From Spizellomyces punctatus DAOM BR117 (lineage: Eukaryota): a stretch of 61,411 bases of DNA. The stretch is from NCBI GenBank assembly GCA_000182565.2, contig KQ257460.1; one strand, 5' to 3'. The position numbers and the translations under genes were made by a program. Position 1 is the first letter of the stretch. Each line of letters starts with the position of its first letter. Of this stretch, positions 43,581 to 60,658 are shown piece after piece. Below the pieces are notes generated by a model. The model had not been told where the DNA came from. It ran no database searches and saw nothing but the letters and a program-made list of their open reading frames with translations.

Positions 43581-44033
43581 GCTACTCGCTATTGTGTAAG
43601 TGCGTGAAGCTTAACAGAATATAAATTTGCAGATTTGCTATTAGATTGCTGCCCGTTGTTTTTTGTTCAGATCTCGTTCGTCCGTTCTTTCAGGACAAAA
43701 GAGCACAATAGTGGAGTAAACACACTATTACGCTGTTTGTACTGTGTGGAAGGTAAACAACACCGTGCAAAAGGTGAAAGCACCTATCAAAATGCCTATT
43801 ATAGGGGTTATTTAAAGGTTCGCAATAAATATCCTGACATTTTGTCCTGCACCCTTTTCAGTAAACGGCGGGCTCTCCTGCCACCCACGGAGAGGCTTGA
43901 TCCTTAGCCACGTGGATCTGATGACTAAGCATTTCAGGTTAACTCAGGTCAACATGGTGGTCTGTGGCTTTCTTTTAGTCTAGAGTTTCGCCGTCTGAAC
44001 ACACACTTGCCATCTATTTATATTATACATTTA

Positions 44034-47000
44034 ATGGATTCGCATCGCGTGGAGCTGGGTGACTCCAATGAATCCGTCTCTGTCATTGACGATGCCGATG
44101 TTTTAGATGACCAAGGATCTGGAAGAAGACATGGCAAGCACGGCGGCCCAGAGGGAACGAGTCGAGATGGTCATCAAAATGAACATGAGATGCACAGTAG
44201 AGCGAAAGTTGGCTGGGATGACAAAGGGCACGAGCGATATACCCATGAGGAGAATAGTCGTGATATAGACTTTGACGACAAAGCAATGGGCGAACACGAG
44301 GATGGCATAGACGAGGACGAGGATGAGGACAAGATAAAAGATACAGTTCCGAAAGAGTTTAAATCTGCAGATGCAAATCAGGAAGAAGAGACCGGCATTG
44401 AAGATACATCAGACCTTGACGTCCCGGCACCGAAACTGCTTCGGATAGTAGATTCTAGAGAACTTCTTTTCTTGGAACGACATCGTGCACTGGAGTTGGA
44501 AGAAGCTGAGGACGAGGACGATGAGTGGCAAGTCGAAGAGGACGTAGAGGTCGAGGATATGGGGGAAGGGCTTGAAGAAAGCGAACCATCCAGTGACAGT
44601 CAAGATGTTGAGGATGATGAATTAGAACAAACTTCCAGTGAACAGGACGATGAGAATGATCATGACAGGTTCAGAGTACACCATTTACATGAAGATGCGA
44701 CTACTGAGACTGATGGTGAACATTTCACCTCAGAGAGTGAGATGGACGGGAACAAAGCAGACGATGAGGACCAAATGCTCTCGAGTGCGTTTCAAAGCGA
44801 TAGTAGCTCGTTGAATCAAGGGAATCCACGTGCACATTCTAGCGAAAGTATGGATCGGCTAGCGAGCTCTATGAGCGACCTCTCTGAAAATAGTGAAAGT
44901 GTTAGCTTGAAAGACCTGAGTGAGGCTGACATAAAATGCGCTGATGTGGCACCAGAAGGTCAAGAGTCTTGCACAGATGATGGCGATGTCGATGACGAGG
45001 ATCGTAGTTCATCTATTACAAACGATGAGAATCATGAATTTGACGAATCCTCATTAGCCGACGAAGAGGATCATCCCGTTGGAAATGACCTGGAAGCACA
45101 TTCTGCTTCCCGTTTGAATTCAGATGATAAGAGTGGCGATATGGGCAATTATATAGACGGACAAGAAACTTGTGAAGATATCATTGACACTGGAGTCGGA
45201 CCAGATTACCCGCAAGATCTTGGACAGGATAACGTGGGGGAGCCGCTGCATTCGATCTCTGACCAAGAAAAAGCGGTGGAGTCCTCAATCATAACCACTT
45301 CGATGACTATCCCGTTGACTTCTGAGCTCCAGATGCCAGCTCATCATGAAGAAACACAACAGAGTAGCGATAAACATCTAGAAGACAATTCCTGTGAAAA
45401 CTGCCAAGATATAGACGATATGAACAACATTGTAAATATCGCAGATTCGCAGATGGAGAAAGGAGCGAACCAAGAAAAGCTTGAAGGTGGCCGCAGTGAC
45501 GCCCTGGACATCAATGAGAGCGAGAACGAGCCTAGCTCTACGTCAGAAGATGCGAGCCAAAACGACGCACATGGCATGGACACCTTTGCCATCCGTCATA
45601 CCAATCAGGAACTCAATAGTTCAGAGATAGTTCCAGACTCCCACGAGCCAGTAATGACCCGCATTATAGCAATGACCGACGACAGCGGGCTGACGGAGGG
45701 TGATGCAGAACTGCAGACGGGCGAAGATGCAGAAGAGCTGGTAATCCATGAAAATCGACCAGCCCGTATTGCAGTGACTGGATCTAGGCCACATGAGGTC
45801 GAAGCAAAGGCAGGAGAGTCCGCCTCTCCGCTGAGCAGTCATTCGGAGAGAGGGGAGCCAACCCAGGTCAACCATGGACTTGTAATAGTGGCACCTACTG
45901 TGATAGGAGGTCCCAAGGATAGGCTAGACACAAATGACGATGTCGAAGGCTTGCTGGCGTCATCAAAGACCTGTAGCACAGGACATGGTATCCCGTCAGT
46001 GGAGCAGGTCTCGAACAGACAGGTTGGCGACGGATTGGATTTAGTTCCGCAAAGTAACAGCGGTCCGGCACCGCTTTTGGTTGAGAACGACGCTTCGCAA
46101 AATGATCAAGTAGTAGAAAAGCAAGATAAGCAACCAACACTATGCAGAAATCAAAATTCCAGCGACGAAGACTCCATTGAACAGATGGATCCAAGAACAG
46201 CACACAGTAATAAGCGACATGAAGACATCAATGCAGTTGCTCAGCAGTCCCTGCACCAGGATGATGACGTCGACGGTGATAGAGCCACTGAAGGGGCAGC
46301 GGGCTATGTGGAAGTTCACATCACACGATCTGTCGCAGGAGAGAATGCAGACCTGGAGGGAAGCAAGAATCTTACTGCCGACGCGTATATTACTCAAGCA
46401 CCCAAGAAATCAGAGCCTCCCGCCCTTGAGATTGATGTGTTGGACATGGCCTTGATTCAAGCTCAACTGCGAGAATCAACTGTGACTGCGGATTCAATGA
46501 CTACAACGTCCGCTTCCAGCACCAACTCGACAATCGCCCAGCTTACATATCAGATTCAAACTGCAGTTCAGACATATTCGGTCACAGAAACGCATCTCCA
46601 TGCCATCCAAGCTGAACACCACTCTCTCCTCTCTACTTTTACCAGTCTGCAGGCAGACGTGATAAATGCCCTTGGTCACGCTACTACATTGCTTTCCCGA
46701 ATCCAACAACAGCGACTTGCTAATGCTGAAGCGAGAGATGCATTAGAGAGCATTCGCCGTCAGATTGTAGATGAAAAACATTCCAGGGACAAAATGGGAT
46801 CTGCGCTCATGGAGGTTCGACAAGCCTTAGCCAAACGAAAACCATTGACAGAAACTGCGGTTAATAAATCGGCTGGTACCGGTGGTTCGTCATCGGGCGA
46901 CGTCACCATCAAAAGACCTCTAGAGGATAAGCTCCGCGCCGCCGAAGCCACCATGCAAGAGCAAGTCCGTTGGAGGCGTGAAAAGGCGGATAGAATAGCT

Positions 47001-47213
47001 CACTTGTCTACTCTGACACGCGCTGCATGGGAGGCGTCAGACAGAGACGCCAGCGAAGGAGACATGAGCGAAGAAATCAGACACATTCGGACTGAAATTG
47101 AACAGCGTCTGCTAGAGAGAACTTCTTGGGTAGAATCATTCGCACGTCAGTGGAAGGACTTTGAGGCGCGACGGGTTTCCGTGGCAGAACGATGGAAAGA
47201 GCATGAGGGCTAG
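44034..47213 (+). CDS. Large intronless acidic (D/E/S-rich) disordered protein with C-terminal coiled coil (about 1059 aa)
   Basis: 3.2-kb open frame, first ATG at 44034, with heptad-like helical character in the last 230 or so residues. Confidence 0.85.
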   Translation: MDSHRVELGDSNESVSVIDDADVLDDQGSGRRHGKHGGPEGTSRDGHQNEHEMHSRAKVGWDDKGHERYTHEENSRDIDFDDKAMGEHEDGIDEDEDEDKIKDTVPKEFKSADANQEEETGIEDTSDLDVPAPKLLRIVDSRELLFLERHRALELEEAEDEDDEWQVEEDVEVEDMGEGLEESEPSSDSQDVEDDELEQTSSEQDDENDHDRFRVHHLHEDATTETDGEHFTSESEMDGNKADDEDQMLSSAFQSDSSSLNQGNPRAHSSESMDRLASSMSDLSENSESVSLKDLSEADIKCADVAPEGQESCTDDGDVDDEDRSSSITNDENHEFDESSLADEEDHPVGNDLEAHSASRLNSDDKSGDMGNYIDGQETCEDIIDTGVGPDYPQDLGQDNVGEPLHSISDQEKAVESSIITTSMTIPLTSELQMPAHHEETQQSSDKHLEDNSCENCQDIDDMNNIVNIADSQMEKGANQEKLEGGRSDALDINESENEPSSTSEDASQNDAHGMDTFAIRHTNQELNSSEIVPDSHEPVMTRIIAMTDDSGLTEGDAELQTGEDAEELVIHENRPARIAVTGSRPHEVEAKAGESASPLSSHSERGEPTQVNHGLVIVAPTVIGGPKDRLDTNDDVEGLLASSKTCSTGHGIPSVEQVSNRQVGDGLDLVPQSNSGPAPLLVENDASQNDQVVEKQDKQPTLCRNQNSSDEDSIEQMDPRTAHSNKRHEDINAVAQQSLHQDDDVDGDRATEGAAGYVEVHITRSVAGENADLEGSKNLTADAYITQAPKKSEPPALEIDVLDMALIQAQLRESTVTADSMTTTSASSTNSTIAQLTYQIQTAVQTYSVTETHLHAIQAEHHSLLSTFTSLQADVINALGHATTLLSRIQQQRLANAEARDALESIRRQIVDEKHSRDKMGSALMEVRQALAKRKPLTETAVNKSAGTGGSSSGDVTIKRPLEDKLRAAEATMQEQVRWRREKADRIAHLSTLTRAAWEASDRDASEGDMSEEIRHIRTEIEQRLLERTSWVESFARQWKDFEARRVSVAERWKEHEG

Positions 47214-48188: not shown

Positions 48189-51100
48189 ATGGGATATCAT
48201 CCCACAATGCCCTTGTGCATTCATTTTATTGCCCTAGTACTCTGGGCAGCTTCCTTGGACATTGTCCCTTTAGCGTACGGCCAGACTACCATCACATATG
48301 GAGTGGTCCTTTCGTCCACTGACCCATCAATCGGTTCGTTTACAAACGCCCTGAACCTCGCCGTCGCCGATGTGAATGCCAATCCTACCCTGTTGTCCAA
48401 TGCGACACTAAGCCTTCGGTTCTACGATTCCAAAGCAAGTCCACGAGTCGTCGTGGCAGAGGGATTGAGAGCCATAGCAGAGGGTGTTAATGCGATAGTT
48501 GGTAGGTTCACAATGCCCTGAGTACTGAAATGTCGGGGTGGAAATATTGACTGCTTTGTGCTCCCCCATGAAAAAAGGCGAGGCAGATTCTGGTATCACT
48601 GAGGTAAGTTGAGATCGGTCAACTGTTTTGTCTAAGAGCGGTGGTACTGACGTTGCCGGTCTACTGGGCAGCCTCTTGTCCTTGCAACCGAAACGAAACT
48701 GATACCTGTCTGCTCGGGGGCTTCGACATCGCCCTCGCTTTCCAACAAAAGCGAATTTGCAACCTTCTTTCGAACGCTTCCTAGTGACAATGCTCAGGGC
48801 GCTGCTATGGTTTCGCTCATGTGGAAAATGGGATGGATGCGCGCAGGGATCATCAGTGAGGCCACTTCGTATGGCCAAGGCGTTGGAGACGCGCTTTTGG
48901 CGGCGATCAGGGAACAGAATGCGGGCATCAGTATCGACACACGCCTGTAAGTCCAGATGATCGAATTCTGCTTAGAAATTGCCGATATTAATCATGTTCT
49001 GTAAAGATCGTACGTGCCTGGGGATCAGATACAAGTCTCCAATCAACTCCAGTCTTTGAAAGAATCTGGAGTTCGCATTATTGTGGCCATCGGGGCGGAT
49101 TTCACACGTTTTGTCAATGTCATGAAAGAAGCCGACAACCTCGGTTTAATTGGAGACGATTATGTGTGGATCCTGTCCGATGCAGTAAGTATAGTATGGT
49201 TCTCCATCCCTGATCTGCGGATGCAGAACATATTCATTGGCTTACCGTGGTTTGGATTACCTAGTTTTTCCCTGTCTTTACCGAAGTCAAATCAAATGAC
49301 AAGCGCCTTTTCAAAGGTGCTTTGGCTGTATACCCTCAAGAGGGCGCCGGACCAAAATATACTCAGTATCGAAATGTACGTCAGAGGAGGTCTGATTTTT
49401 ATTGACATTGCAACCTCAGCTTATGTGCTGTATTATATATTGCAGGCTGGCAACCGGGAAAACCCTTACGACTTGTTTTATTATGATTGTGTAAGTTGCC
49501 TAAACTCTCCTTTCTATGCCAGGTTTTCTTTCTTCTAACGCAACCTGCATACAAAGGTTCTGGCACTTGCAGCAGCACACACTAAAATGTTGAGCGAAGG
49601 CGTCTCTCTTGCCAACTTGGCAGCAAACACTGTCCCGCCATTTAATATTACTCAGTTCACCCGCGTGAACTTTACTGGCATGACCGGGACTGTCGTATTT
49701 GACAAAGATGGAGATCGGGATGGGTAAGGCGGTTATGCAACGTGTGCTGAATTGCATCTAGATATTCTAAAACACACTCTCTTGGTTACATAGTGATTAT
49801 GCCCTCCACAGTTTCGACGGAAATACCGCGACACAAGTGGCAGTCATTCGCCGTGGCAAAACATTTGACCCTCCTCAACCCGTCATCAAATTCCATTCTG
49901 GATCAACCGTCGTCCCACTAGACACTCCGTCCTTTAAGCTGAATGTTGTCGAATGGACATCACCCATGGGCATCGCCATCAGTGCAATTTTCGGCGTCAT
50001 GATAATAGTGTGTATCGTCTCCATTGTCCTTTCCTTGACCTTCCGGAAGAGTTCCATCTTGAAGCCTGTCAGTCCAGTCTTTTGTGGGATCATCTCTTTC
50101 GGGCTTGCTTTGGTATTTGGCAGTGAGCTGGCGGATGTTGGTTGGAAGTCTACATTTACGTGCAACCTGTACCCTTGGCTATTGGGAATTGGATTCGCGA
50201 CTGCTCTGGTGAGTTTCTGATACGTCGCATTATTGGCCGATAGTCGTATATTCATATCGGAATTAGGCTTCGGTATTCGTCAAACAGTGGCGTATCTTTA
50301 GGATCTTTGAAAACGTTCAAATGGCCAAGCGGCCCATTCGGGATGGACGTCTTCTCTACATCTTCTCGGGTATTGTGAGCGTGCAAGTGGTGCGTAGTAT
50401 AATGATCCCTCTATTGCGCTGATCTTGCATTCATAGTTGGAGTTTACATTTCAGATTTTGTTGGGTATCATGACAGCCGCGTCGCCCCTTCGTCCCATCA
50501 GGATAATTGATCGGAAAACGGAAACGACTAGTTTTGTTTGCACAGCGACAAATACGGACATTCAGAATGGCCTAACCTACATAATATATGCCTACTGCGG
50601 TATTTTGCTGATTGTATGCACTTACCTTGGTAAGTTTCTTGTCCACTCTTACCACACGTTCAATCCAACTTACCATTTGTGCAGCTATCCGTACTCGCAA
50701 TGTTTACTCTGCCTTTAACGAATCAAAGTGGATCGGCCTCAGTGTATATAACATCATTCTATGCGGTCTAGCAGCTCTAGCAGTCACATACATTGGCGGC
50801 AACACCATGTCGGAACCGACGCGATTTGCTGTCCGGAATGCTGCAGTGTTTTTTGCAGCGACTGTGGCATACATTTCACTCGTCGGACGACTTTTGGCTG
50901 TGTTGATCGCAAAGGAAACAGGGTATGCCTCTGATATCATCAGCAGCGAGGATGGCAGCATAGGCCTCAGAAGCATGCCAAGTATCTTCCCAAGTCTAAA
51001 TTCTGGCACCCCTCGGTCGGCAAATGCCTCGCTGATGACCGCACAAATTCGGCAAGCTAGCTTCCCGATGAAGCACGTGGGGAAAATGGGTGCTGTGTGG

Positions 51101-51598
51101 AAACAACAAACTATGACCTTGGCACTTGGTTCTGAAAAGGTTTTAAGCTTGATAGAGACCAATGCAGAGGTACAGGTTAATCTGTTTTCTAGTATACATT
51201 CTGAACATACTCATTCATTAACGGCGTTTATGTCTGTTTCTAGAACACGGTAGGACTACTCATACGACTCAAGGACGTTAAAGCTCGGCTGTTGGTCCCA
51301 GAAGATCCTGACCCACATGACCTCCGCCATTGTCGGTTCGAGATAAGATGGGGAAATGTGATGATGAAAGTTCAAGGTATACACTGATGATACCTATTCG
51401 CTATTGTCATCACGTATTTACTTTGTAAATTCTTCATCAGGTGCAACAATAGCAGAGTGCGAGGAATGGGTTTATCTCATAAATAGCGGGGGATTAAGCT
51501 CGGGAGCTTCACAATCTCCTGCACGAGGGGTTAGAGACCGAGATGTGACGACAGCGCGGACGTCTGGATTGCAGGTCGACCAGATCAAATCGGGTTGA
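48189..51598 (+). CDS. Class C (GABA-B/glutamate-type) GPCR: signal peptide, Venus-flytrap domain, 7TM and PH-like C-terminal domain; many exons
   Basis: LAVADVNANPTLL, STSPSLSNKSEFATFFRTLPSD, FTGMTGTVVFDKDGDR (periplasmic-binding/ANF-receptor fold); SPVFCGII, CNLYPWLLGIGF, KQWRIFRIF and TRNVYSAFNESKWIGLSVYN (7tm_3 motifs). Confidence 0.9.
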
Positions 51599-51991: not shown

Positions 51992-54183
51992 TCAGAAAAC
52001 AAAACTGGCAACCAAAGCAACCAATACGGCGCTAAATCCTCCAACGGAAGAATGCATGGCACTGGAGATGATTGGTATGTTGCCAGTCGGGTTCTGATCA
52101 GGGGTCGAGGTGTTGTTACCGATGGTAGGCTGCGTAATAACTTCTGCGTCCTCGGGGAGAGGAAGGGGTTTGTAGTCAGGCTTCTTATCAACAGTATCAC
52201 CGTCTTCATTTGTAACAGGGCCGGCATTATAGGTAGGCAAACTACCCGCGTCTTCCTGGCATGTCAATCCAGAGTAACCCGGTTTGCACATGCACCCGTT
52301 AGGAGTGCAGACTCCGTTCTGGCCGCACCCACTGGGGCAAGAATTGGTTCCCAAGCCGTTTTCCTTTTGAACCTTGTCACCTTCTTTTTGTTCCGCAGGG
52401 TCGGCAGAGCACTTTTGAGCGTCAGTTTTGGCACGGCAATTGCCCAACATTTGTGCTTTGATGCCCTCTGAGAAGATGAAAGAACCTGTGCGAACAGCGT
52501 CCTTGACACAAGACATGATGTAGAAGGGGTGATCGACTTGAGACTCGCAGCCGGGAACGTTGAAGAGTTTTGTACAGTAATCAACAGCCTGATTATAGAA
52601 TTGTTCAGGGCAGGTCGGGGGACGAGGGACCGTGGGAGTTTCGCCAGGCATGTAGATGGGCTCATTGTCGCCACCGTTGCTTGGTTGGGCCGGGGTGGCC
52701 GTGACCGTAGCGGTGGCAGTAACTGTCTGCGTAATAGGAGTGTATGTCGGAAGTGCGGTGATGGTTGTGTAGTACGTATCCGTAACCGTTGAGGTTGCTG
52801 TCGTGTAGGCAGTCGACGGAGCAGCTGTAACAGTGACCTCTTGAGTAATTTGTGTAGTTTGGTACACAACGCTACTGACGACAATGGTGGTAGCAGAAGC
52901 CGCAACGGTGGTGGAGGCAGAATCCCCAGCGGTGGTCGTGGCTGGCGCAGTGGTGGCAGGACCAGAGGACGAAGCAATTTCAGTAGCTGCCACCGTCGTG
53001 GTCGTGGCCGGAGCGGTTTCAACGGCCGTGGAGGTGATAGTGTTCGTAATAACCGTAGGAATTACAACAGTCGAAACTTGAGTGGCGACCGGCGGAATGG
53101 GTTGAGCAGTGCACGCATTACCACCATTGTAAACGGGAGGTTTTCCCTTATGCGCACAGTTGGCACCGCAGACGAAAATGTCATCTTCGGGAGGGACTTT
53201 CCAAGTGTCACCAAATACGCTGCCCTTCTTGGTCTTGGTGCCATCTGCACATACCAAATCCGTATCGTCACCGTCTTCGTAAACGTTACAGAGACCTCCG
53301 ACTTGTTTGTAGTAAGGACCGCCGAGACGAACCGTCACATCAACATAGTTGAAAGTGTTGAAAACGTTGGAATTCAATTCAATCTGGGAGCCATCTTCGG
53401 CAATTTCGATAACGTAATGGCGCAAATCCGCTCCAGCCGTAATCTTCAGGCCTTGAATAGCAGCGGATGCTTGGCGGAGAATCATGGCCGCCTTATTGCC
53501 TTTCTGCTCGGTGGTGATGACAACTACTGCTTCACCATAGCGAATGGCGACTCCATTATTGCAGCCGACGCCTGGGCTGCAGTAAAATTGGGTTGTTTGG
53601 ATAGTCAACATGTCATGTTTGACGAGGTAGTGAGTACCCTGAGAATGGTCTGTATAGATAGGTCCAAGAGTGTTAGATGTCAAGATTTGAAATCCCAGAT
53701 AAAAGTGAACAACAACTTACAGTCATAGCGAATTCCACCAAAGGTCTTGTAGTGGGGATCGCCAACAGTCGTACAGGTAACTGCCTTTTTGTACTCTCTC
53801 TTGACTGGGTATTTGGCCTCTCCACCGTGGTATACGGATCCAGGTGCATTACACCGCCCGAGAAGGTTGTACGTAAGCTCGCCGATCTTTGTATACTGGT
53901 TGATGGGGAAGAGCGTGATGCCTTTCCAGGTATTCCAGTCGTTGGAATTGTATTCGGTCGTGCAGTTGCTTGATTTCATGCCAGGTGTGTCCCAGATGAT
54001 GGTGGCCTTGTCCTTTGGGGGACTCTTGAGTCGGCATTTGAACTCTGTTGCAATCTTGACGTCGGCAATGGAGAGGAGTGGAGGATCAAACTCTAGGAAA
54101 TCTGTAATGCTCTGTCCCAAGACCGAGGTCGACGCCCCAAGCAACAAGCTTGAAGCAAGGAGAATCTTTGATAGAAGAGGCAT
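51992..54183 (-). CDS. Secreted, probably GPI-anchored surface protein with VWD domain, Thr-rich mucin-like stalk, C8-like Cys region and EGF-like domain (2 exons)
   Basis: Signal peptide; CTTVGDPHYKTFGGIRYD|Y and VGGLCNVY..D..D..FGDTWKV (VWD); Thr-rich tract; C..VDHPFYIMSCVKD (C8-like); CPSGCGQNGVCTPNGCMCKPGYSGLTC (EGF); hydrophobic C-terminus. Confidence 0.88.
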
Positions 54184-57319: not shown

Positions 57320-57630
57320 CAACGCAACAAGAAACAGTTTCATAGATAGTATATAGGTATTTGTAGATGAGGCTTGTGGAAATAAACTTTTGGTTATCTT
57401 GATCAGGAGGATGCACAGCCCAACAAAAGGACCCCATAGTTTTTAGCGCTAGTGGCTTAGTACGATGCGAGACAAAAGGGGAACGCGGGTTGTTTCAGCG
57501 GCAAGTTTCATTTGCGCAACCCCCAAGCCGCACAGCGCTTACGGCACCAATTTTACAAGACCTGAGCTTGCAAGCGACAAGTGTTCCCATTTCATTCTTA
57601 CCTCGTCGCTCATTTGCCTGGCGCAAAAGA

Positions 57631-60600
57631 ATGAGTGAGGGTGCGACCATGCGAGAGTTGGTTTCAACAACCGCTCGAGATGGAGATCCGTCAAGCCCAC
57701 ACCAGCGACAGTCCATAGCGTCGTACTATACGGACATGACATTTCCCACCCTAACTCAAGCTCTCCGAATTCGAACTAGTGCTCACTTTGAGGCAAGGGA
57801 CTCGAACTGGAGCGGATCGCCTTCATTGATATCAGCTCCATCTGATTTTGTGTCGGAGCCCCGGAGCTCACTTGCGGCTTCCTTCACATACGATAAAGAT
57901 GGCGAGCAGGCATATTTTATGTTAATGCAGCAACAGCAACAGCTACAGCAACAACAACCGGCAAACCCTATCAGCGGTCGTTTGACTGGATCTACACCAA
58001 GGCGATCTATCATCAAAACTGCCGCGAAGCAGAGGTCAAGGTCGCGGCCCATGTCCCGAGTATCGGAAGATGCTTCCGCGCTCAAAGGTAGTATTGGTGA
58101 ACTAGAAATAAATACCGAGCTACATCCCACCAGCGATATAGAGGCGAAGCAATATATAGCGGGCGCTCCCCATTCAACCCGATATCGAGAAGCTCCTGGC
58201 AAGGAGAGCGGATCTGACAATAGCCAGCGCGACTCAGTTCTACCATCTGCTGAATCGCAGAAGATCCCTGCTCTGAACTACTATTCACTGCCCTCTCCAA
58301 AGTTTGTTTCGATGGTGAATCTTCCCGACGTAGCGCAACCTAAATATGCGGAAACGAGGTCATCGGCCTCGTTCGGAATGACACCAGTGAGCGCGCAAGA
58401 TGGCGTAACCCCACCTATATCACCCCCAGATAGCGCATTACTGCCTACTCCGTCTGTGTCTATAAGTTCACCGTCTGTGACCAACGGAACCGTGACTAGT
58501 GCGAGCCAAAGCGATACAACCATAGATTCCAGAGGGAATATGATGCATTCTGTGATGCAGTCCTTGTTTCCATCGTCTCTTGGTGCAATCTCTCCTGTTT
58601 TCTCGGGTCATTTGTATAAACTGGGGCGAAACAAGCGATGGCAATGGCGGGTAAGCCATTTTTCGACAGTTCAGAAATTATGCTTCCGGCTGTTCTAACA
58701 TATCCTTGTTGCAGCTCCTTCGCTTTGATGGTACCCTGTTGACATGCCTTGGCACTAGTAAAATAAAACTTCCCAGAAAAACAGCCGCCGTTTTGTCATC
58801 AACAACTAATACAACCTACATTCCTATCCCTAATGCTCAACCGATGCCTCTTCTCACAAGTGCTCTACTTGCGGACGAACATCATTCGCCGCTGACTACC
58901 AACGCTGGGTCGCCAGTGTCCAAATGGGTTCACCTTCCAAAATGGACGATCCACATTGGGAGTGTAACGCATATTTCTTTATTAAAGCGTACAAAGAATC
59001 GGCGAATGTACCAACCTGTCGACCTTCCCATAGATGGGGCCTCACCGAAGAGTACAACGGCAGGTGGTGATGGCAAGTCGGAGGCGGGCACACAACCGGA
59101 ACGTACTACGCCTGCGTGGTTTGGAAACGCCAAGAAATGTTTTGTTATCCGAACTAATGACGGGAAGAACTATATCTTGCGGGCCAAGAAAAATGAAGAT
59201 CTGGAGCGCTGGTTGTTTGTACTTGTGGCGATGTGGAGAGTAGTGCGTGCTGGCATTGCTGATGGTTCCACGCAACTCTCTCAAAGGCAATCGGTGTCGC
59301 TGGGTGGTGACATGTGGATGGATACTATCGGAAGAATTAGACGACATGTTTCCTTTGTACCGCCCCCGATTGAGCATTCTGTAGAATATCCACAAGGACG
59401 ACGAAGATCCACTTCAGAACCTGCTCCAGTGGATATGCTAGCGATCATGTCATCATCTTCCTCTAAATCCGGGCGAATGTCGGTGGCAAGTAACAGGATA
59501 TCCGTGGACCATGCAATGCGTCAGCGTCGGGAGTCTCAGCAGCGTCAAGCAGCTCCAAAAAGTGCCCCTATTCCGGAAGAGGGACCACTTTCTGCCAATG
59601 TCGTGGACGACGATAAATCTTGGATACATGATGTAGATCTCGTCACCAGTGGAGCGCAAATCACACCGATTGATGTTACATCGGATTCCGATCCGAAAGG
59701 CGACAGCGGTTCCTCAGTACGGCCAATAACCGTTTTTAGCGTCACGATCATGCAGCAGTTGGATGAACTTGCTCGTGATCTTCGCGGTGCCCAGCAGAGA
59801 CAACTGGAGTTGTCCAAATTGGGGGTAAAGACCGGCATGGTTACGCTACCATGGTACCCTGAAAGAAAAGATTCGCTGCCTGAAGTCACTGGCGCTCCCA
59901 ACGTAGTCACTCACGGACGACCTACGAACCGCAGAATGGAGGATCGGCGTGGAGAACGCAGGAGTCCTGTCAAGCAACATCAACCAATGCCGGCGCCAGG
60001 ACAAGGGCGAGACAGAGTTTTAGAGCATTCTCGGGAGGACGAGAGGCCGATGGAGCAACCTCAGGAACGCGGGCATCCGTATGAAGAACAGCAGCCAGAA
60101 GCTCTTCAAGACATCACGTACCCGCCGCGTTTAGAATCTAAAAACTCACACTTTTTGCGGGGAGGAAAGGGTAAAAACAAGCTGGCACAGAAAGGCTCTT
60201 CTGACGACGACGTAGTTGCAACGCGTAGAGAAACCGTCGTAACTTACCATCCCGATGACGCAGCCAATACGCACCACGTAACGGTATCGGAGAACGGCAG
60301 CATCAAAGCCGACTCACCACCTGTAACTGCAACTAATATGCCAACTCAACCTATAAAACCTTCACGTCTCAAGACCCTGCAATCGACACCTACCATTACG
60401 TGGGCCCCACTCCCACCTTCCATCTCATCCGGCAACGCCGAAAAACGCGTCCCCCGTTCTTCAGCCTCCATCTCACAGGCTGTAGCAGACGCATGGCGAT
60501 CATCCCTGGCCAGTCTCATCGAACATGACAAAGGCGTCCGAGTATCGGTGTCTGGGGAAGCTCCAGGTGAACTGAGCTTGGATCGCTGGATCGAAATGAG

Positions 60601-60658
60601 AAGGCGCCAAGTCGATTGGAGTCGAGTTGAGGTATCTACCGGCCAGGGAACCATCTAG
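57631..60658 (+). CDS. PH-domain protein with long disordered flanks (2 exons, intron at about 58651-58714)
   Basis: FSGHLYKLGRNKRWQWR|LLRFDGTLLTC...PKWTIHIGSV...CFVIRTNDGKNYILRAKKNEDLERWLFVL, plus a polyQ tract. Confidence 0.85.

What the first reader, a model, noticed from the sequence alone, without database searches (positions are those of the whole stretch)
48189..51598. Venus-flytrap class C GPCR apparently fused to a C-terminal PH domain
Seen: a complete signal peptide + VFT + 7TM receptor with no obvious Cys-rich linker (GABA-B-like). After a Ser-rich spacer come exons reading QASFPMKHVGKMGAVWKQQTMTL...LLIRLKDVKARL...CRFEIRWGNVMMKVQ|GATIAECEEWVYLINS, a beta-strand series closing in the ExxxW helix typical of PH folds. 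Known: class C GPCRs are absent from most Dikarya but occur in early-diverging fungi, and animal class C receptors do not carry PH domains. Inference: a small-molecule or nutrient sensor with a built-in phosphoinositide- or G-beta-gamma-binding module, possibly for zoospore chemotaxis.
Basis: partly seen in the sequence, partly recalled or inferred. Interest (0 to 1): 0.7.

Follow-up and report, generated by a model that had tools for sequence, protein, structure and literature searches.

The report
Chytrid class C receptor with PH tail
This chytrid-fungus gene encodes a GABA-B-like nutrient or small-molecule receptor whose inner tail folds as a PH domain, a combination not found in the papers searched and possibly common to early fungi.

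Summary
Window 48189-51598 (+) is a 13-exon gene whose spliced product equals the 867-aa protein SPPG_06409 of Spizellomyces punctatus. It has a signal peptide, an ANF_receptor Venus-flytrap domain, no Cys-rich domain and a 7tm_3 core. Its closest solved relatives are GABA-B2 and GABA-B1.

After a disordered 42-residue Ser/Thr-rich linker, residues 729-831 fold as seven strands plus a C-terminal helix (AlphaFold2 pLDDT 80.8). The best structural match is the pleckstrin C-terminal PH domain, Z 11.8. An independent ESM Atlas model agrees.

The module is about as conserved as the flytrap domain in four chytrid orthologues. TM5-7 and the first three PH strands lie in one exon. An RNA contig shows intron 11 spliced out, so the transcript does not stop at 51253.

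The canonical phosphoinositide motif lacks its key Arg in 4 of 4 orthologues. Lipid or G-beta-gamma binding is untested.

By eye only, the same tail appears in most class C receptors of S. punctatus, Allomyces and Rhizopus listed in a 2012 supplement. This is a new variant of a known kind.

The parts
48189..51598 (+). Whole coding region of SPPG_06409: 13 exons (48189-48501, 48578-48603, 48672-48946, 49007-49184, 49265-49375, 49446-49490, 49557-49723, 49794-50208, 50267-50389, 50455-50629, 50685-51169, 51244-51376, 51441-51598). It encodes 867 aa plus the stop.
   Evidence: Exon-chain search. The translation is identical to P0001. P0001 is 100% identical to exon 11.
48189..48284 (+). Putative signal peptide, aa 1-32.
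   Evidence: Hydrophobic segment 5-31. No signal-peptide predictor was run. The orthologue P0002 and the older 863-aa model start at the second Met.
48345..49818 (+). Venus-flytrap ligand-binding domain (ANF_receptor, aa 53-380), interrupted by introns 1-7.
   Evidence: Pfam E 2.2e-53, 182 bits. The exon 3 peptide is best matched by the human GABA-B1 extracellular domain, 4mqe_A, E 9e-8.
49819..49950 (+). Short stalk, aa 381-424, with no Cys-rich domain.
   Evidence: No NCD3G hit at E up to 10. The only Cys in residues 396-460 lies in TM1.
49951..50914 (+). Seven-transmembrane core (7tm_3 at aa 425-672; hydropathy segments to aa 686), interrupted by introns 8-10.
   Evidence: Pfam E 5.1e-46. 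Seven hydrophobic segments. Best solved relatives are GABA-B2 at 2.5e-42 and GABA-B1 at 1.4e-33.
50915..51040 (+). Cytoplasmic linker, aa 687-728: Ser/Thr-rich, poorly conserved, predicted disordered.
   Evidence: Residues 687-733 hold 13 S/T in 47. 4 of 47 columns are invariant. pLDDT is 21-27 and there is no secondary structure in the full-length model.
51041..51487 (+). PH-fold domain, aa 729-831, encoded in three pieces: 51041-51169 (strands 1-3), 51244-51376 (strands 4-7) and 51441-51487 (C-terminal helix with the invariant Trp825).
   Evidence: AF2 pLDDT 80.8, pTM 0.74, seven strands plus a helix. ESM Atlas model: TM 0.68-0.74 in 10 of 10 rows, 9 of them PH-domain protein clusters. Foldseek. 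VIA Z up to 11.8. 31 of 97 columns invariant. Coordinates.
51170..51243 (+). Intron 11 (74 nt, GTACAG..TCTAG), between PH strands 3 and 4. If it were retained, the frame would stop at 51251-51253.
   Evidence: RNA contig in run X1 skips 74 nt with GT..AG ends, cut +2, that is 51169 joined to 51244; one contig, depth 4.4. The frame 50612..51253 ends in a stop.
51377..51440 (+). Intron 12 (64 nt, GTATAC..ATCAG), between strand 7 and the helix.
   Evidence: Predicted only. No read or contig laid bridges it. It is supported by conservation of the helix peptide in 4 of 4 orthologues.
51488..51598 (+). Disordered C-terminal tail, aa 832-867, plus the stop codon.
   Evidence: 3 of 37 columns invariant. 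pLDDT below 50 for residues 833-867.

Best explanation
SHOWN. Window 48189-51598 is one real gene, SPPG_06409 of the chytrid Spizellomyces punctatus. It encodes a class C GPCR built like a GABA-B subunit: signal peptide, ANF-type Venus-flytrap domain, no Cys-rich domain, and a 7tm_3 core. The GABA-B coiled-coil tail is replaced by a disordered Ser/Thr-rich linker followed by a divergent but genuine PH-fold domain (aa 729-831).

INFERRED FROM TOPOLOGY. With the flytrap outside and seven membrane passes, the PH domain is cytoplasmic. It is tethered about 45 residues from TM7, so it is held at the inner leaflet. Class C receptors are dimers in animals, so it would be present in two copies per receptor.

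INFERRED MECHANISM. A small ligand, perhaps amino-acid-like, closes the flytrap and activates the 7TM core as in other class C receptors. The PH domain acts as a built-in docking module for a cytoplasmic partner, such as a G-protein subunit, a small GTPase or an effector. It may have weak help from anionic lipid, but it is not a specific high-affinity phosphoinositide sensor.

ODDS. The architecture and the fold: about 0.9. The docking-module reading of the PH domain: only about 0.4.
For: Gene and identity:
- The spliced translation equals P0001, which NCBI names SPPG_06409 of S. punctatus.
- Domains: ANF_receptor 2.2e-53 and 7tm_3 5.1e-46, with no Cys-rich family.
- The closest solved sequences are GABA-B2 at 2.5e-42 and GABA-B1 at 1.4e-33, ahead of mGluR4 at 5.5e-26.

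PH fold:
- AF2 of the module gives pLDDT 80.8, pTM 0.74, with strands at 6-17, 25-33, 37-43, 52-55, 60-64, 78-83 and 86-91 and a helix at 95-107.
- The same elements appear in the full-length model.
- The ESM Atlas's own model of residues 728-835 aligns at TM 0.68-0.74 in 10 of 10 rows. Nine are clusters of PH-domain proteins; the tenth is an oxysterol-binding-protein cluster with no PH family listed.
- Foldseek against the PDB: 38 of 39 listed rows are PH-domain entries. The best is ASAP1 PH, E 3.5e-4. The exception is SsgB at rank 50.
- VIA-align across 48,161 chains: 163 chains at Z 8 or more, top SHARPIN PH at Z 11.7, rmsd 2.6 over 96 residues.
- VIA second look: pleckstrin C-terminal PH 2i5c_A, Z 11.8, rmsd 2.5 over 93 aligned residues of the 94-residue chain, 20% identity.
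- Weak sequence echoes: Pfam PH is sub-threshold in 2 of 4 orthologues (best E 0.0028). The only PDB hit of the module profile is the TAPP1 PH domain, E 0.046.

Real fusion under selection:
- Exon 11 (50685-51169) is one open frame from TM5 to PH strand 3.
- The same tail occurs in P0002, P0003 and P0004.
- Invariant columns: PH 32%, flytrap 36%, 7TM 44%, linker 9%, tail 8%.
- Indels between orthologues and both introns fall in predicted loops.

Expression:
- RNA-library contigs more than 99% identical cover exons 8, 10, 11 and 12, and one contig shows intron 11 removed.
- The two differences in those contigs are synonymous.

Against specific phosphoinositide binding:
- In the alignment to TAPP1, the W-K-R-R stretch aligns to W-K-Q-Q, W-K-Q-M, W-K-M-H and W-K-T-H in the four orthologues.
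- The domain has 12 K+R against 12 D+E.
Against: - The fold rests on predictions from an alignment of only 4 close sequences.
- Foldseek E-values are modest (3.5e-4 and weaker) and TM is about 0.6.
- Pfam's PH model reaches its cut-off in 0 of 4 orthologues.
- No RNA evidence bridges exon 12 to exon 13.
- The species' own RNA run gave only 8 reads on the gene, with about 6 in 100 of the run read.
- One X1 contig (50382-50575) runs unspliced through intron 9. That library therefore also holds pre-mRNA or DNA.
- No partner, lipid or ligand was tested, so the docking-module mechanism is inference only.
- Two conserved basic residues, on beta1 (K/R) and at the start of beta2 (K), are retained in 4 of 4 orthologues. 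Two orthologues have His where the canonical Arg sits. Weak, pH-dependent or non-canonical lipid binding is therefore not excluded.
- The topology (tail inside) is inferred from hydropathy only.
Confidence: 0.8

Rival explanations
1. The PH domain is a true phosphoinositide sensor. It binds PI(4,5)P2 or 3-phosphoinositides in the inner leaflet. It thereby gates, clusters or polarises the receptor, for example at the front of a crawling or swimming zoospore.
For: - The closest folds include many inositol-phosphate-bound PH domains: pleckstrin C-PH, TAPP1, DAPP1, ARAP3 and ASAP1.
- The beta1 Lys/Arg and the Lys after the beta2 Trp are invariant or conservatively kept in 4 of 4 orthologues.
- Two orthologues have His at the canonical Arg position.
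- Further invariant Arg residues (R799, R802, R806) sit around strands 5-6. From recall, non-canonical sites lie there in some PH domains.
Against: - The last Arg of the canonical K-Xn-[K/R]-X-R signature (motif recalled from the PH literature) is Q, M, H and H in the four orthologues.
- The net charge of the domain is zero, with 12 K+R and 12 D+E.
- From recall, most PH domains do not bind phosphoinositides with high affinity or specificity.
- An integral membrane protein needs no membrane-targeting module.
Confidence: 0.28
2. The PH domain docks G-beta-gamma, as the GRK2 PH domain does. It would hold or sequester the released dimer at the activated receptor.
For: Analogy only. In the literature listing (top 10 of 45 shown), 8 of the 10 listed titles concern GRKs. 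The module is a classical PH fold tethered to a GPCR.
Against: No sequence or structural match specific to GRK2's PH domain appeared among the rows listed. That absence is not evidence against the idea.
Confidence: 0.12
3. The PH domain is an intramolecular or dimer-forming regulator. The two copies in a receptor dimer would pair with each other, or one would fold back on the 7TM cytoplasmic face. It would take the place of the GABA-B coiled coil.
For: - The tail has no coiled coil. The only helix after TM7 longer than 4 residues is the 13-residue PH helix.
- A top structural match, the SHARPIN PH domain at Z 11.7, serves as a dimerisation module; that role is from recall.
Against: No test ran. 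The homodimer prediction never entered the queue. The full-length model is too poor (pLDDT 54.7) to read contacts. The long, variable linker argues against a fixed docking geometry.
Confidence: 0.1
4. Gene-model artefact. The PH-encoding exons would not be part of the receptor mRNA, through read-through to the stop at 51253, a separate downstream gene, or non-coding sequence.
For: No RNA evidence exists for the exon 12/13 junction. Very few reads came from the species' own RNA run. One contig is unspliced at intron 9.
Against: - TM5-7 and PH strands 1-3 share one exon.
- An RNA contig joins 51169 to 51244.
- Exons 12 and 13 encode peptides conserved in 4 species at 39-84% identity.
- The three pieces only fold as a domain when joined.
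Confidence: 0.02

Closest known systems
Metazoan GABA-B receptor subunits GB1 and GB2 (class C GPCR)
   Same: ANF-type Venus-flytrap domain joined directly to 7tm_3 with no Cys-rich domain. They are the best sequence matches among solved structures: GB2 at 2.5e-42 and GB1 at 1.4e-33. The lobe-1 stretch S-G-A-S-T-S-P-S-L-S-N aligns best with ligand-binding GB1.
   Different: The tail has no C-terminal coiled coil and carries a PH-fold domain instead. Krishnan et al. 2012 report that fungal Glutamate-family receptors cluster apart from the metazoan ones (passage seen). This receptor is therefore GABA-B-like in build, not a shown orthologue.
Classical PH domains (Pfam PF00169), e.g. pleckstrin C-terminal PH and TAPP1 C-terminal PH
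   Same: Seven-strand sandwich capped by a C-terminal helix with a conserved Trp. Z 11.8, rmsd 2.5 over 93 residues to 2i5c_A. TAPP1 is the only PDB sequence hit of the module profile, E 0.046.
   Different: Below Pfam's cut-off in 4 of 4 orthologues. The last Arg of the phosphoinositide signature is missing. It is attached to a seven-transmembrane receptor.
GRK2/GRK3 PH domain (binds G-beta-gamma and PIP2 to reach active GPCRs)
   Same: A PH domain working at the cytoplasmic face of a GPCR. In the listing, 8 of the 10 listed titles concern GRKs.
   Different: In GRK2 the PH domain sits on a soluble kinase recruited in trans. Here it is part of the receptor chain. No specific similarity was shown.
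GPCR-bigrams of oomycetes and Dictyostelium RpkA (GPCR with a C-terminal PIPK, INPP, AC, TKL or DEP domain)
   Same: A seven-transmembrane receptor with an added cytoplasmic signalling domain at the C-terminus, in a zoosporic microbe (passages seen).
   Different: The bigram domains listed there are catalytic, or DEP. None is a PH domain, and the passages seen do not mention class C or 7tm_3. GPCR-PIPKs are reported absent from fungi.
Dictyostelium Grl receptors (e.g. GrlE) and other non-metazoan Glutamate-family GPCRs
   Same: Protist class C receptors with ANF or other periplasmic-binding-protein domains. GrlE is reported to bind GABA and glutamate (passage seen).
   Different: No C-terminal PH domain is mentioned for them in the passages seen. 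Their tails were not examined here.
Homer EVH1 domain binding mGluR1/5 tails
   Same: A PH-like fold working on a class C receptor tail. Homer3 EVH1 appears among the structural neighbours at Z 9.6.
   Different: Homer is a separate scaffold protein that binds a proline motif in trans (from recall). Here the PH-like fold is in cis and is closer to classical PH than to EVH1.

Membership tests
Class C (Glutamate family) GPCR | 7tm_3 seven-transmembrane core above Pfam's gathering score | tested here: met
   PF00003, 157.8 bits against a cut-off of 33.5, residues 425-672. Seven hydrophobic segments between 426 and 686.
Class C (Glutamate family) GPCR | Large extracellular Venus-flytrap ligand-binding domain | tested here: met
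   PF01094 ANF_receptor, 182 bits against a cut-off of 25.4, residues 53-380. Peripla_BP_6, 77 bits.
GABA-B-type subfamily | Flytrap joined to the 7TM core with no Cys-rich (NCD3G) domain | tested here: met
   No NCD3G hit at E up to 10. The 44-residue stalk (381-424) has no Cys; the only Cys in 396-460 lies in TM1.
GABA-B-type subfamily | Closest sequence relatives are GABA-B subunits | tested here: met
   Among solved chains, GB2 at 2.5e-42 and GB1 at 1.4e-33 come before mGluR4 at 5.5e-26. No phylogeny was made here. Krishnan 2012 places fungal receptors in a separate cluster.
GABA-B-type subfamily | C-terminal coiled coil that mediates heterodimerisation (feature from recall) | tested here: not met
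   After TM7 the models show a disordered linker, a 4-residue helix at 724-727, the PH sandwich and its 13-residue helix, but no long helix. The full-length model is of low confidence.
GABA-B-type subfamily | GABA-contacting residues of GB1 | not tested
   Only the lobe-1 Ser-rich stretch was seen aligned to GB1. No residue-by-residue check was made.
PH domain (PH-like superfold) | Seven-strand antiparallel sandwich closed by a C-terminal alpha-helix | tested here: met
   AF2 secondary structure. ESM Atlas structural neighbours: 9 of 10 rows are PH-domain clusters. Foldseek. VIA Z 11.7-11.8.
PH domain (PH-like superfold) | Conserved Trp in the C-terminal helix | tested here: met
   W825 is invariant in 4 of 4 orthologues, within C-E/D-E-W-V-Y-L.
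PH domain, Pfam PF00169 | Score above the Pfam gathering threshold (25.1 bits) | tested here: not met
   0 of 4 orthologues reach it. As full proteins, P0003 scores 13.7 bits and P0004 12.8 bits. As isolated modules, 2 of 4 match, with best E 0.0028.
Phosphoinositide-binding PH domains | Basic signature K-Xn-[K/R]-X-R across strands 1-2 (motif from recall) | tested here: not met
   The first K/R and the K after Trp are present. The final Arg is Q, M, H and H in the four orthologues. In the profile alignment, TAPP1's W-K-R-R faces W-K-q-h.
GPCR-bigram | C-terminal catalytic accessory domain (PIPK, INPP, AC, PDE or TKL) | tested here: not met
   No catalytic family was found in the tail. The tail domain is a PH fold.

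The most novel reading that the evidence does not exclude
The PH-fold tail is not a quirk of one gene. It is an ancestral, family-wide and so far unnamed domain of fungal class C GPCRs, spanning Blastocladiomycota, Chytridiomycota and at least Rhizopus. It has gone unseen because Pfam's PH model does not reach it and because the surveys seen here discuss N-terminal or extracellular domains. It would give these receptors a built-in transducer-docking or lipid-reading step that animal class C receptors lack.

Basis, by eye only, in supplementary file 1 of Krishnan et al. 2012:
- S. punctatus: 9 clear plus 2 probable of 14 entries.
- Allomyces macrogynus: 9 of the 10 entries whose C-termini are shown in part 14.
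- B. dendrobatidis: 1 of 3 entries.
- Rhizopus: the single entry.

All of these show, after TM7, the same ordered motifs: [FY]-P-[VM]-K, then W, then C-x-E-[IL]-R, then a helix with W. None of these sequences was scored by any tool here.
Probability: 0.45. Interest if true: 0.75.

Novelty: new variant of a known kind. Interest (0 to 1): 0.62.

Why it matters
Class C receptors are among the best-studied sensors in animals. Their cytoplasmic tails are thought of as disordered or coiled-coil scaffolding sites.

A folded PH domain built into the tail would be a different wiring of the same receptor. The adaptor, which animals recruit in trans (GRK2's PH domain, Homer's EVH1), would be part of the receptor itself.

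If the tail proves family-wide in zoosporic fungi, it offers three things:
- a handle on how chytrid zoospores, including those of pathogenic chytrids, read chemical cues;
- a new Pfam-type family that would improve annotation of hundreds of fungal receptors;
- a natural example for engineering GPCRs with built-in effector docking.

S. punctatus can be grown and electroporated (search listing only), so the idea is testable.

Tried and rejected
Steps that led nowhere:
- No whole genome is held for this window, so paralogues in the same genome could not be searched.
- The module profile (4 sequences) against 1.84 billion representatives found only its own two clusters, P0002 and P0004.
- A word-based search on residues 725-835 found 3 proteins, all orthologues.
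- The 7TM region search found 6 proteins. The two outside the orthologue group (P0005, P0006; 30% and 28% identity) end just after 7tm_3 and have no tail domain.
- The metagenome scan with two module patterns gave 70 pattern matches and 0 confirmed relatives.
- The ESM Atlas feature search gave no usable hit for P0001's module. For P0004's module it gave a PH cluster at 0.75, which is a lead only.
- The full-length AF2 model (4-sequence alignment) was poor, with mean pLDDT 54.7 and pTM 0.43. It was used only for secondary structure and disorder, not for contacts.
- The PH homodimer prediction never entered the queue.
- The species' own raw RNA run X8 gave only 8 reads, with no junction information.
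- X3 and X4 cover introns and behave as DNA.

Ideas considered and rejected:
- Descent of the module from the PH-like region of the neighbouring gene. hhalign gives probability 0.19 and E 0.31.
- A gene-model artefact (see rivals).

Literature:
- No paper holds 'SPPG_06409'.
- No paper holds '7tm_3' + 'pleckstrin homology' + 'domain architecture'.
- No paper holds 'Allomyces' + 'GPCR' + 'PH domain'.
- 'PH domain' occurs 0 times in all six papers checked. 'pleckstrin' occurs 0 times in Krishnan 2012, the J Fungi 2025 survey and de Mendoza 2014. It occurs only in the expansion of 'DEP' in PMC6033456 and PMC5784254. Its single occurrence in PMC12716839 was not among the passages shown.
- Not seen: supplementary figures S2-S3 of de Mendoza 2014 (domain architectures), and InterPro, UniProt or Gene3D entries. 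Any of these could already list a PH-like superfamily hit.


Full report
**What is there.**
The stretch 48189-51598 on the + strand holds a 13-exon gene. An exon-chain search requiring GT..AG introns and an open frame gave 8 models, which differ only at three alternative splice sites. One of them translates exactly to the 867-aa database protein P0001.
- P0001 is 100% identical to the exon 11 peptide, and NCBI names it SPPG_06409 of Spizellomyces punctatus DAOM BR117.
- S. punctatus is a chytrid of the order Spizellomycetales.
- The 12 introns are 55-80 nt long with 33-51% G+C. The exons have 49% G+C.
- The one correction is that QASFPMKH... is not a separate exon. It is the end of exon 11, which also encodes TM5-7.

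**The receptor part.**
- Pfam finds ANF_receptor at residues 53-380 (E 2.2e-53) and 7tm_3 at 425-672 (E 5.1e-46). No Cys-rich domain is listed at E up to 10.
- Hydropathy shows an N-terminal signal-like segment and seven membrane segments. The 44-residue stalk has no Cys.
- Among all solved structures, the best sequence matches are human GABA-B2 (2.5e-42) and GABA-B1 (1.4e-33), ahead of mGluR4 (5.5e-26) and CaSR.
- The lobe-1 peptide of exon 3 aligns best with the ligand-binding subunit GABA-B1 (4mqe_A, E 9e-8) and keeps a Ser/Thr-rich stretch there.
- 'GABA-B-like class C receptor' is therefore right as a description of the build.
- It is not shown to be an orthologue. Krishnan et al. 2012 report that fungal Glutamate-family receptors cluster apart from the metazoan ones (passages).
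- That paper counted 14 such receptors in S. punctatus. Its sequence supplement lists SPPG_06409 as an 863-aa older model.

**The tail.**
After TM7 comes a linker that is Ser/Thr-rich (13 of 47 residues), poorly conserved (4 of 47 invariant columns) and predicted disordered. Residues 729-831 then form a compact domain. Several lines point to a PH fold:
- AlphaFold2 on the alignment of the four orthologous modules gives mean pLDDT 80.8 and pTM 0.74, with seven strands followed by one helix. The same elements recur in the otherwise poor full-length model.
- An independent predictor agrees. The ESM Atlas holds its own model of this protein. Residues 728-835 of that model align at TM 0.68-0.74 in 10 of 10 rows, nine of which are PH-domain protein clusters.
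- Against solved structures, Foldseek lists 39 rows. All but one (SsgB, rank 50) are PH-domain entries, and the best is ASAP1 PH at E 3.5e-4.
- VIA-align run over 48,161 representative chains without Foldseek gives 163 chains at Z 8 or more. The top are SHARPIN PH and the Exo84 Ral-binding PH at Z 11.7. I recognise every one of the 50 listed rows, by title or from recall, as a PH-like fold: PH, PTB, RanBD, EVH1 or PH-GRAM.
- The VIA second look puts the pleckstrin C-terminal PH domain first: Z 11.8, rmsd 2.5, 93 residues aligned of the 94-residue chain, 20% identity.
- Sequence-level echoes are weak but point the same way. Pfam PH is sub-threshold in 2 of 4 modules. The only PDB hit of the module profile is the TAPP1 PH domain at E 0.046, aligned over positions 16-109.
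- The Trp of the closing helix is invariant.

**Is the fusion real?**
Yes, for four reasons:
- Exon 11 is one uninterrupted frame from TM5 to PH strand 3.
- The same tail is present in Spizellomyces 'palustris', Phlyctochytrium arcticum and Thoreauomyces humboldtii. NCBI files two of these three under Spizellomycetales and P. arcticum under Chytridiales.
- The module is under constraint like the other domains. Invariant columns are 32% for PH, 36% for the flytrap, 44% for the 7TM core, 9% for the linker and 8% for the tail.
- The two large insertions in P. arcticum and both introns fall in predicted loops.

RNA evidence:
- Contigs of an RNA-seq run labelled root metagenome (X1) lie on exons 8, 10, 11 and 12, with 0-1 differences each.
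- One 267-nt contig joins 51169 to 51244, removing intron 11.
- The two differences in these contigs are synonymous third-position changes.

Limits of that evidence:
- It is one contig at depth 4.4.
- Another X1 contig runs unspliced through intron 9.
- Nothing bridges exon 12 to exon 13.
- The species' own RNA run gave 8 reads.

**What the PH domain may do.**
The fold says little about function. The canonical phosphoinositide signature across strands 1-2 (recalled from the PH literature) is only partly present.
- The strand-1 Lys/Arg and the Lys after the strand-2 Trp are kept in 4 of 4 orthologues.
- The Arg two positions further on is Q, M, H and H. In the profile alignment it faces the second Arg of TAPP1's W-K-R-R.
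- The domain carries 12 basic and 12 acidic residues.

An integral membrane protein does not need a membrane-targeting module. I therefore favour, at about 40%, a docking role for a cytoplasmic partner held at the receptor. A lipid-reading role comes second (about 28%), then G-beta-gamma docking specifically (about 12%), then a dimer or auto-regulatory role (about 10%). None of these was tested. The one test open to me, a homodimer prediction, never entered the queue.

**A wider pattern, seen by eye only.**
Reading the sequence supplement of Krishnan et al. 2012 to check that SPPG_06409 was listed, I saw that many other fungal class C receptors there end in a similar segment after TM7. The segment has the same ordered motifs: [FY]-P-[VM]-K, a Trp about ten residues on, C-x-E-[IL]-R, and a final helix with Trp.

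My tally:
- S. punctatus: 9 clear and 2 probable of 14 entries. Three show none (00031, 05818, 07119).
- Allomyces macrogynus: 9 of the 10 entries whose C-termini are shown in part 14.
- B. dendrobatidis: 1 clear of 3.
- Rhizopus oryzae: the single entry.
- The paralogue SPPG_04432 even shares V-W-[KR]-x-x-T-M-T with this gene.

I scored none of them. The HMMER profile search did not link them at E 0.001 or better. This is a lead, not a finding. If it holds, the PH tail dates back at least to the common ancestor of the zoosporic fungi and Mucoromycota.

**Comparison with what is known, and novelty.**
Animal class C receptors have coiled-coil or disordered tails.
- In the literature listing (top 10 of 45 shown), 8 of the 10 titles concern GRKs, whose PH domain acts on GPCRs in trans.
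- The C-terminal accessory domains described for GPCR-bigrams are catalytic, or DEP.
- The surveys of fungal and protist class C receptors that I could read discuss N-terminal or extracellular domains only and do not mention PH.
- Searches for the locus tag and for the architecture found no paper.
- I could not see InterPro or Gene3D, which may already flag a PH-like superfamily hit, nor de Mendoza's supplementary architecture figures.

**Verdict.**
This is a real gene with a correct observation. The PH fold is well supported and the function is open. It is a new variant of a known kind, with moderate to high interest that would rise if the family-wide pattern is confirmed.

Noticed in passing
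window 57403-60658 (+): The next-but-one gene downstream appears to carry its own, more canonical PH domain, split by an intron or a long insert. The ORF 57403-58698 ends in G-H-L-Y-K-L-G-R-N-K-R-W-Q-W-R. The ORF 58655-60658 has a partial Pfam PH hit (E 0.0084, profile positions 63-97) at its residues 156-187. It is not related to the receptor's module by hhalign (probability 0.19).
   Followed up: partly
window 51992-53716 (-): A 574-aa open frame converges on the receptor's 3' end. It is Thr-rich (80 Thr), with a mucin-like middle, a Cys-rich EGF-like stretch (EGF_TEN, E 7.4e-4, far below its cut-off) and a hydrophobic C-terminal end. It looks like a cell-surface glycoprotein.
   Followed up: partly
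window 43929-47213 (+): A 1094-aa uninterrupted open frame lies upstream. It is very acidic and Ser-rich (127 Glu, 121 Asp, 117 Ser) and has no Pfam family at E 0.001 or better.
   Followed up: no
window 50382-50575: One RNA-library contig of run X1 runs unspliced through intron 9 (50390-50454), while another contig of the same run shows intron 11 removed. The cause is pre-mRNA, intron retention or DNA in the library.
   Followed up: no
window 48189-48206 and 50380-50460: The older 863-aa model of SPPG_06409 printed in the 2012 supplement starts at the second Met. It also reads the exon 9/10 junction differently from the current 867-aa model. Pfam's 7tm_3 alignment runs continuously across the current junction.
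   Followed up: partly
orthologue P0003 (Phlyctochytrium arcticum): NCBI files this species under Chytridiales. Yet its receptor is closer to the S. punctatus protein (58% identity) than that of Thoreauomyces, a member of Spizellomycetales (45%). The filing of the species may be out of date.
   Followed up: no
Krishnan et al. 2012, supplementary file 1, parts 14, 17 and 18: By eye, most listed class C receptors of S. punctatus and Allomyces, and the single Rhizopus entry, carry a PH-like segment after TM7 with the same ordered motifs as this gene. The main text of that paper does not mention it.
   Followed up: partly
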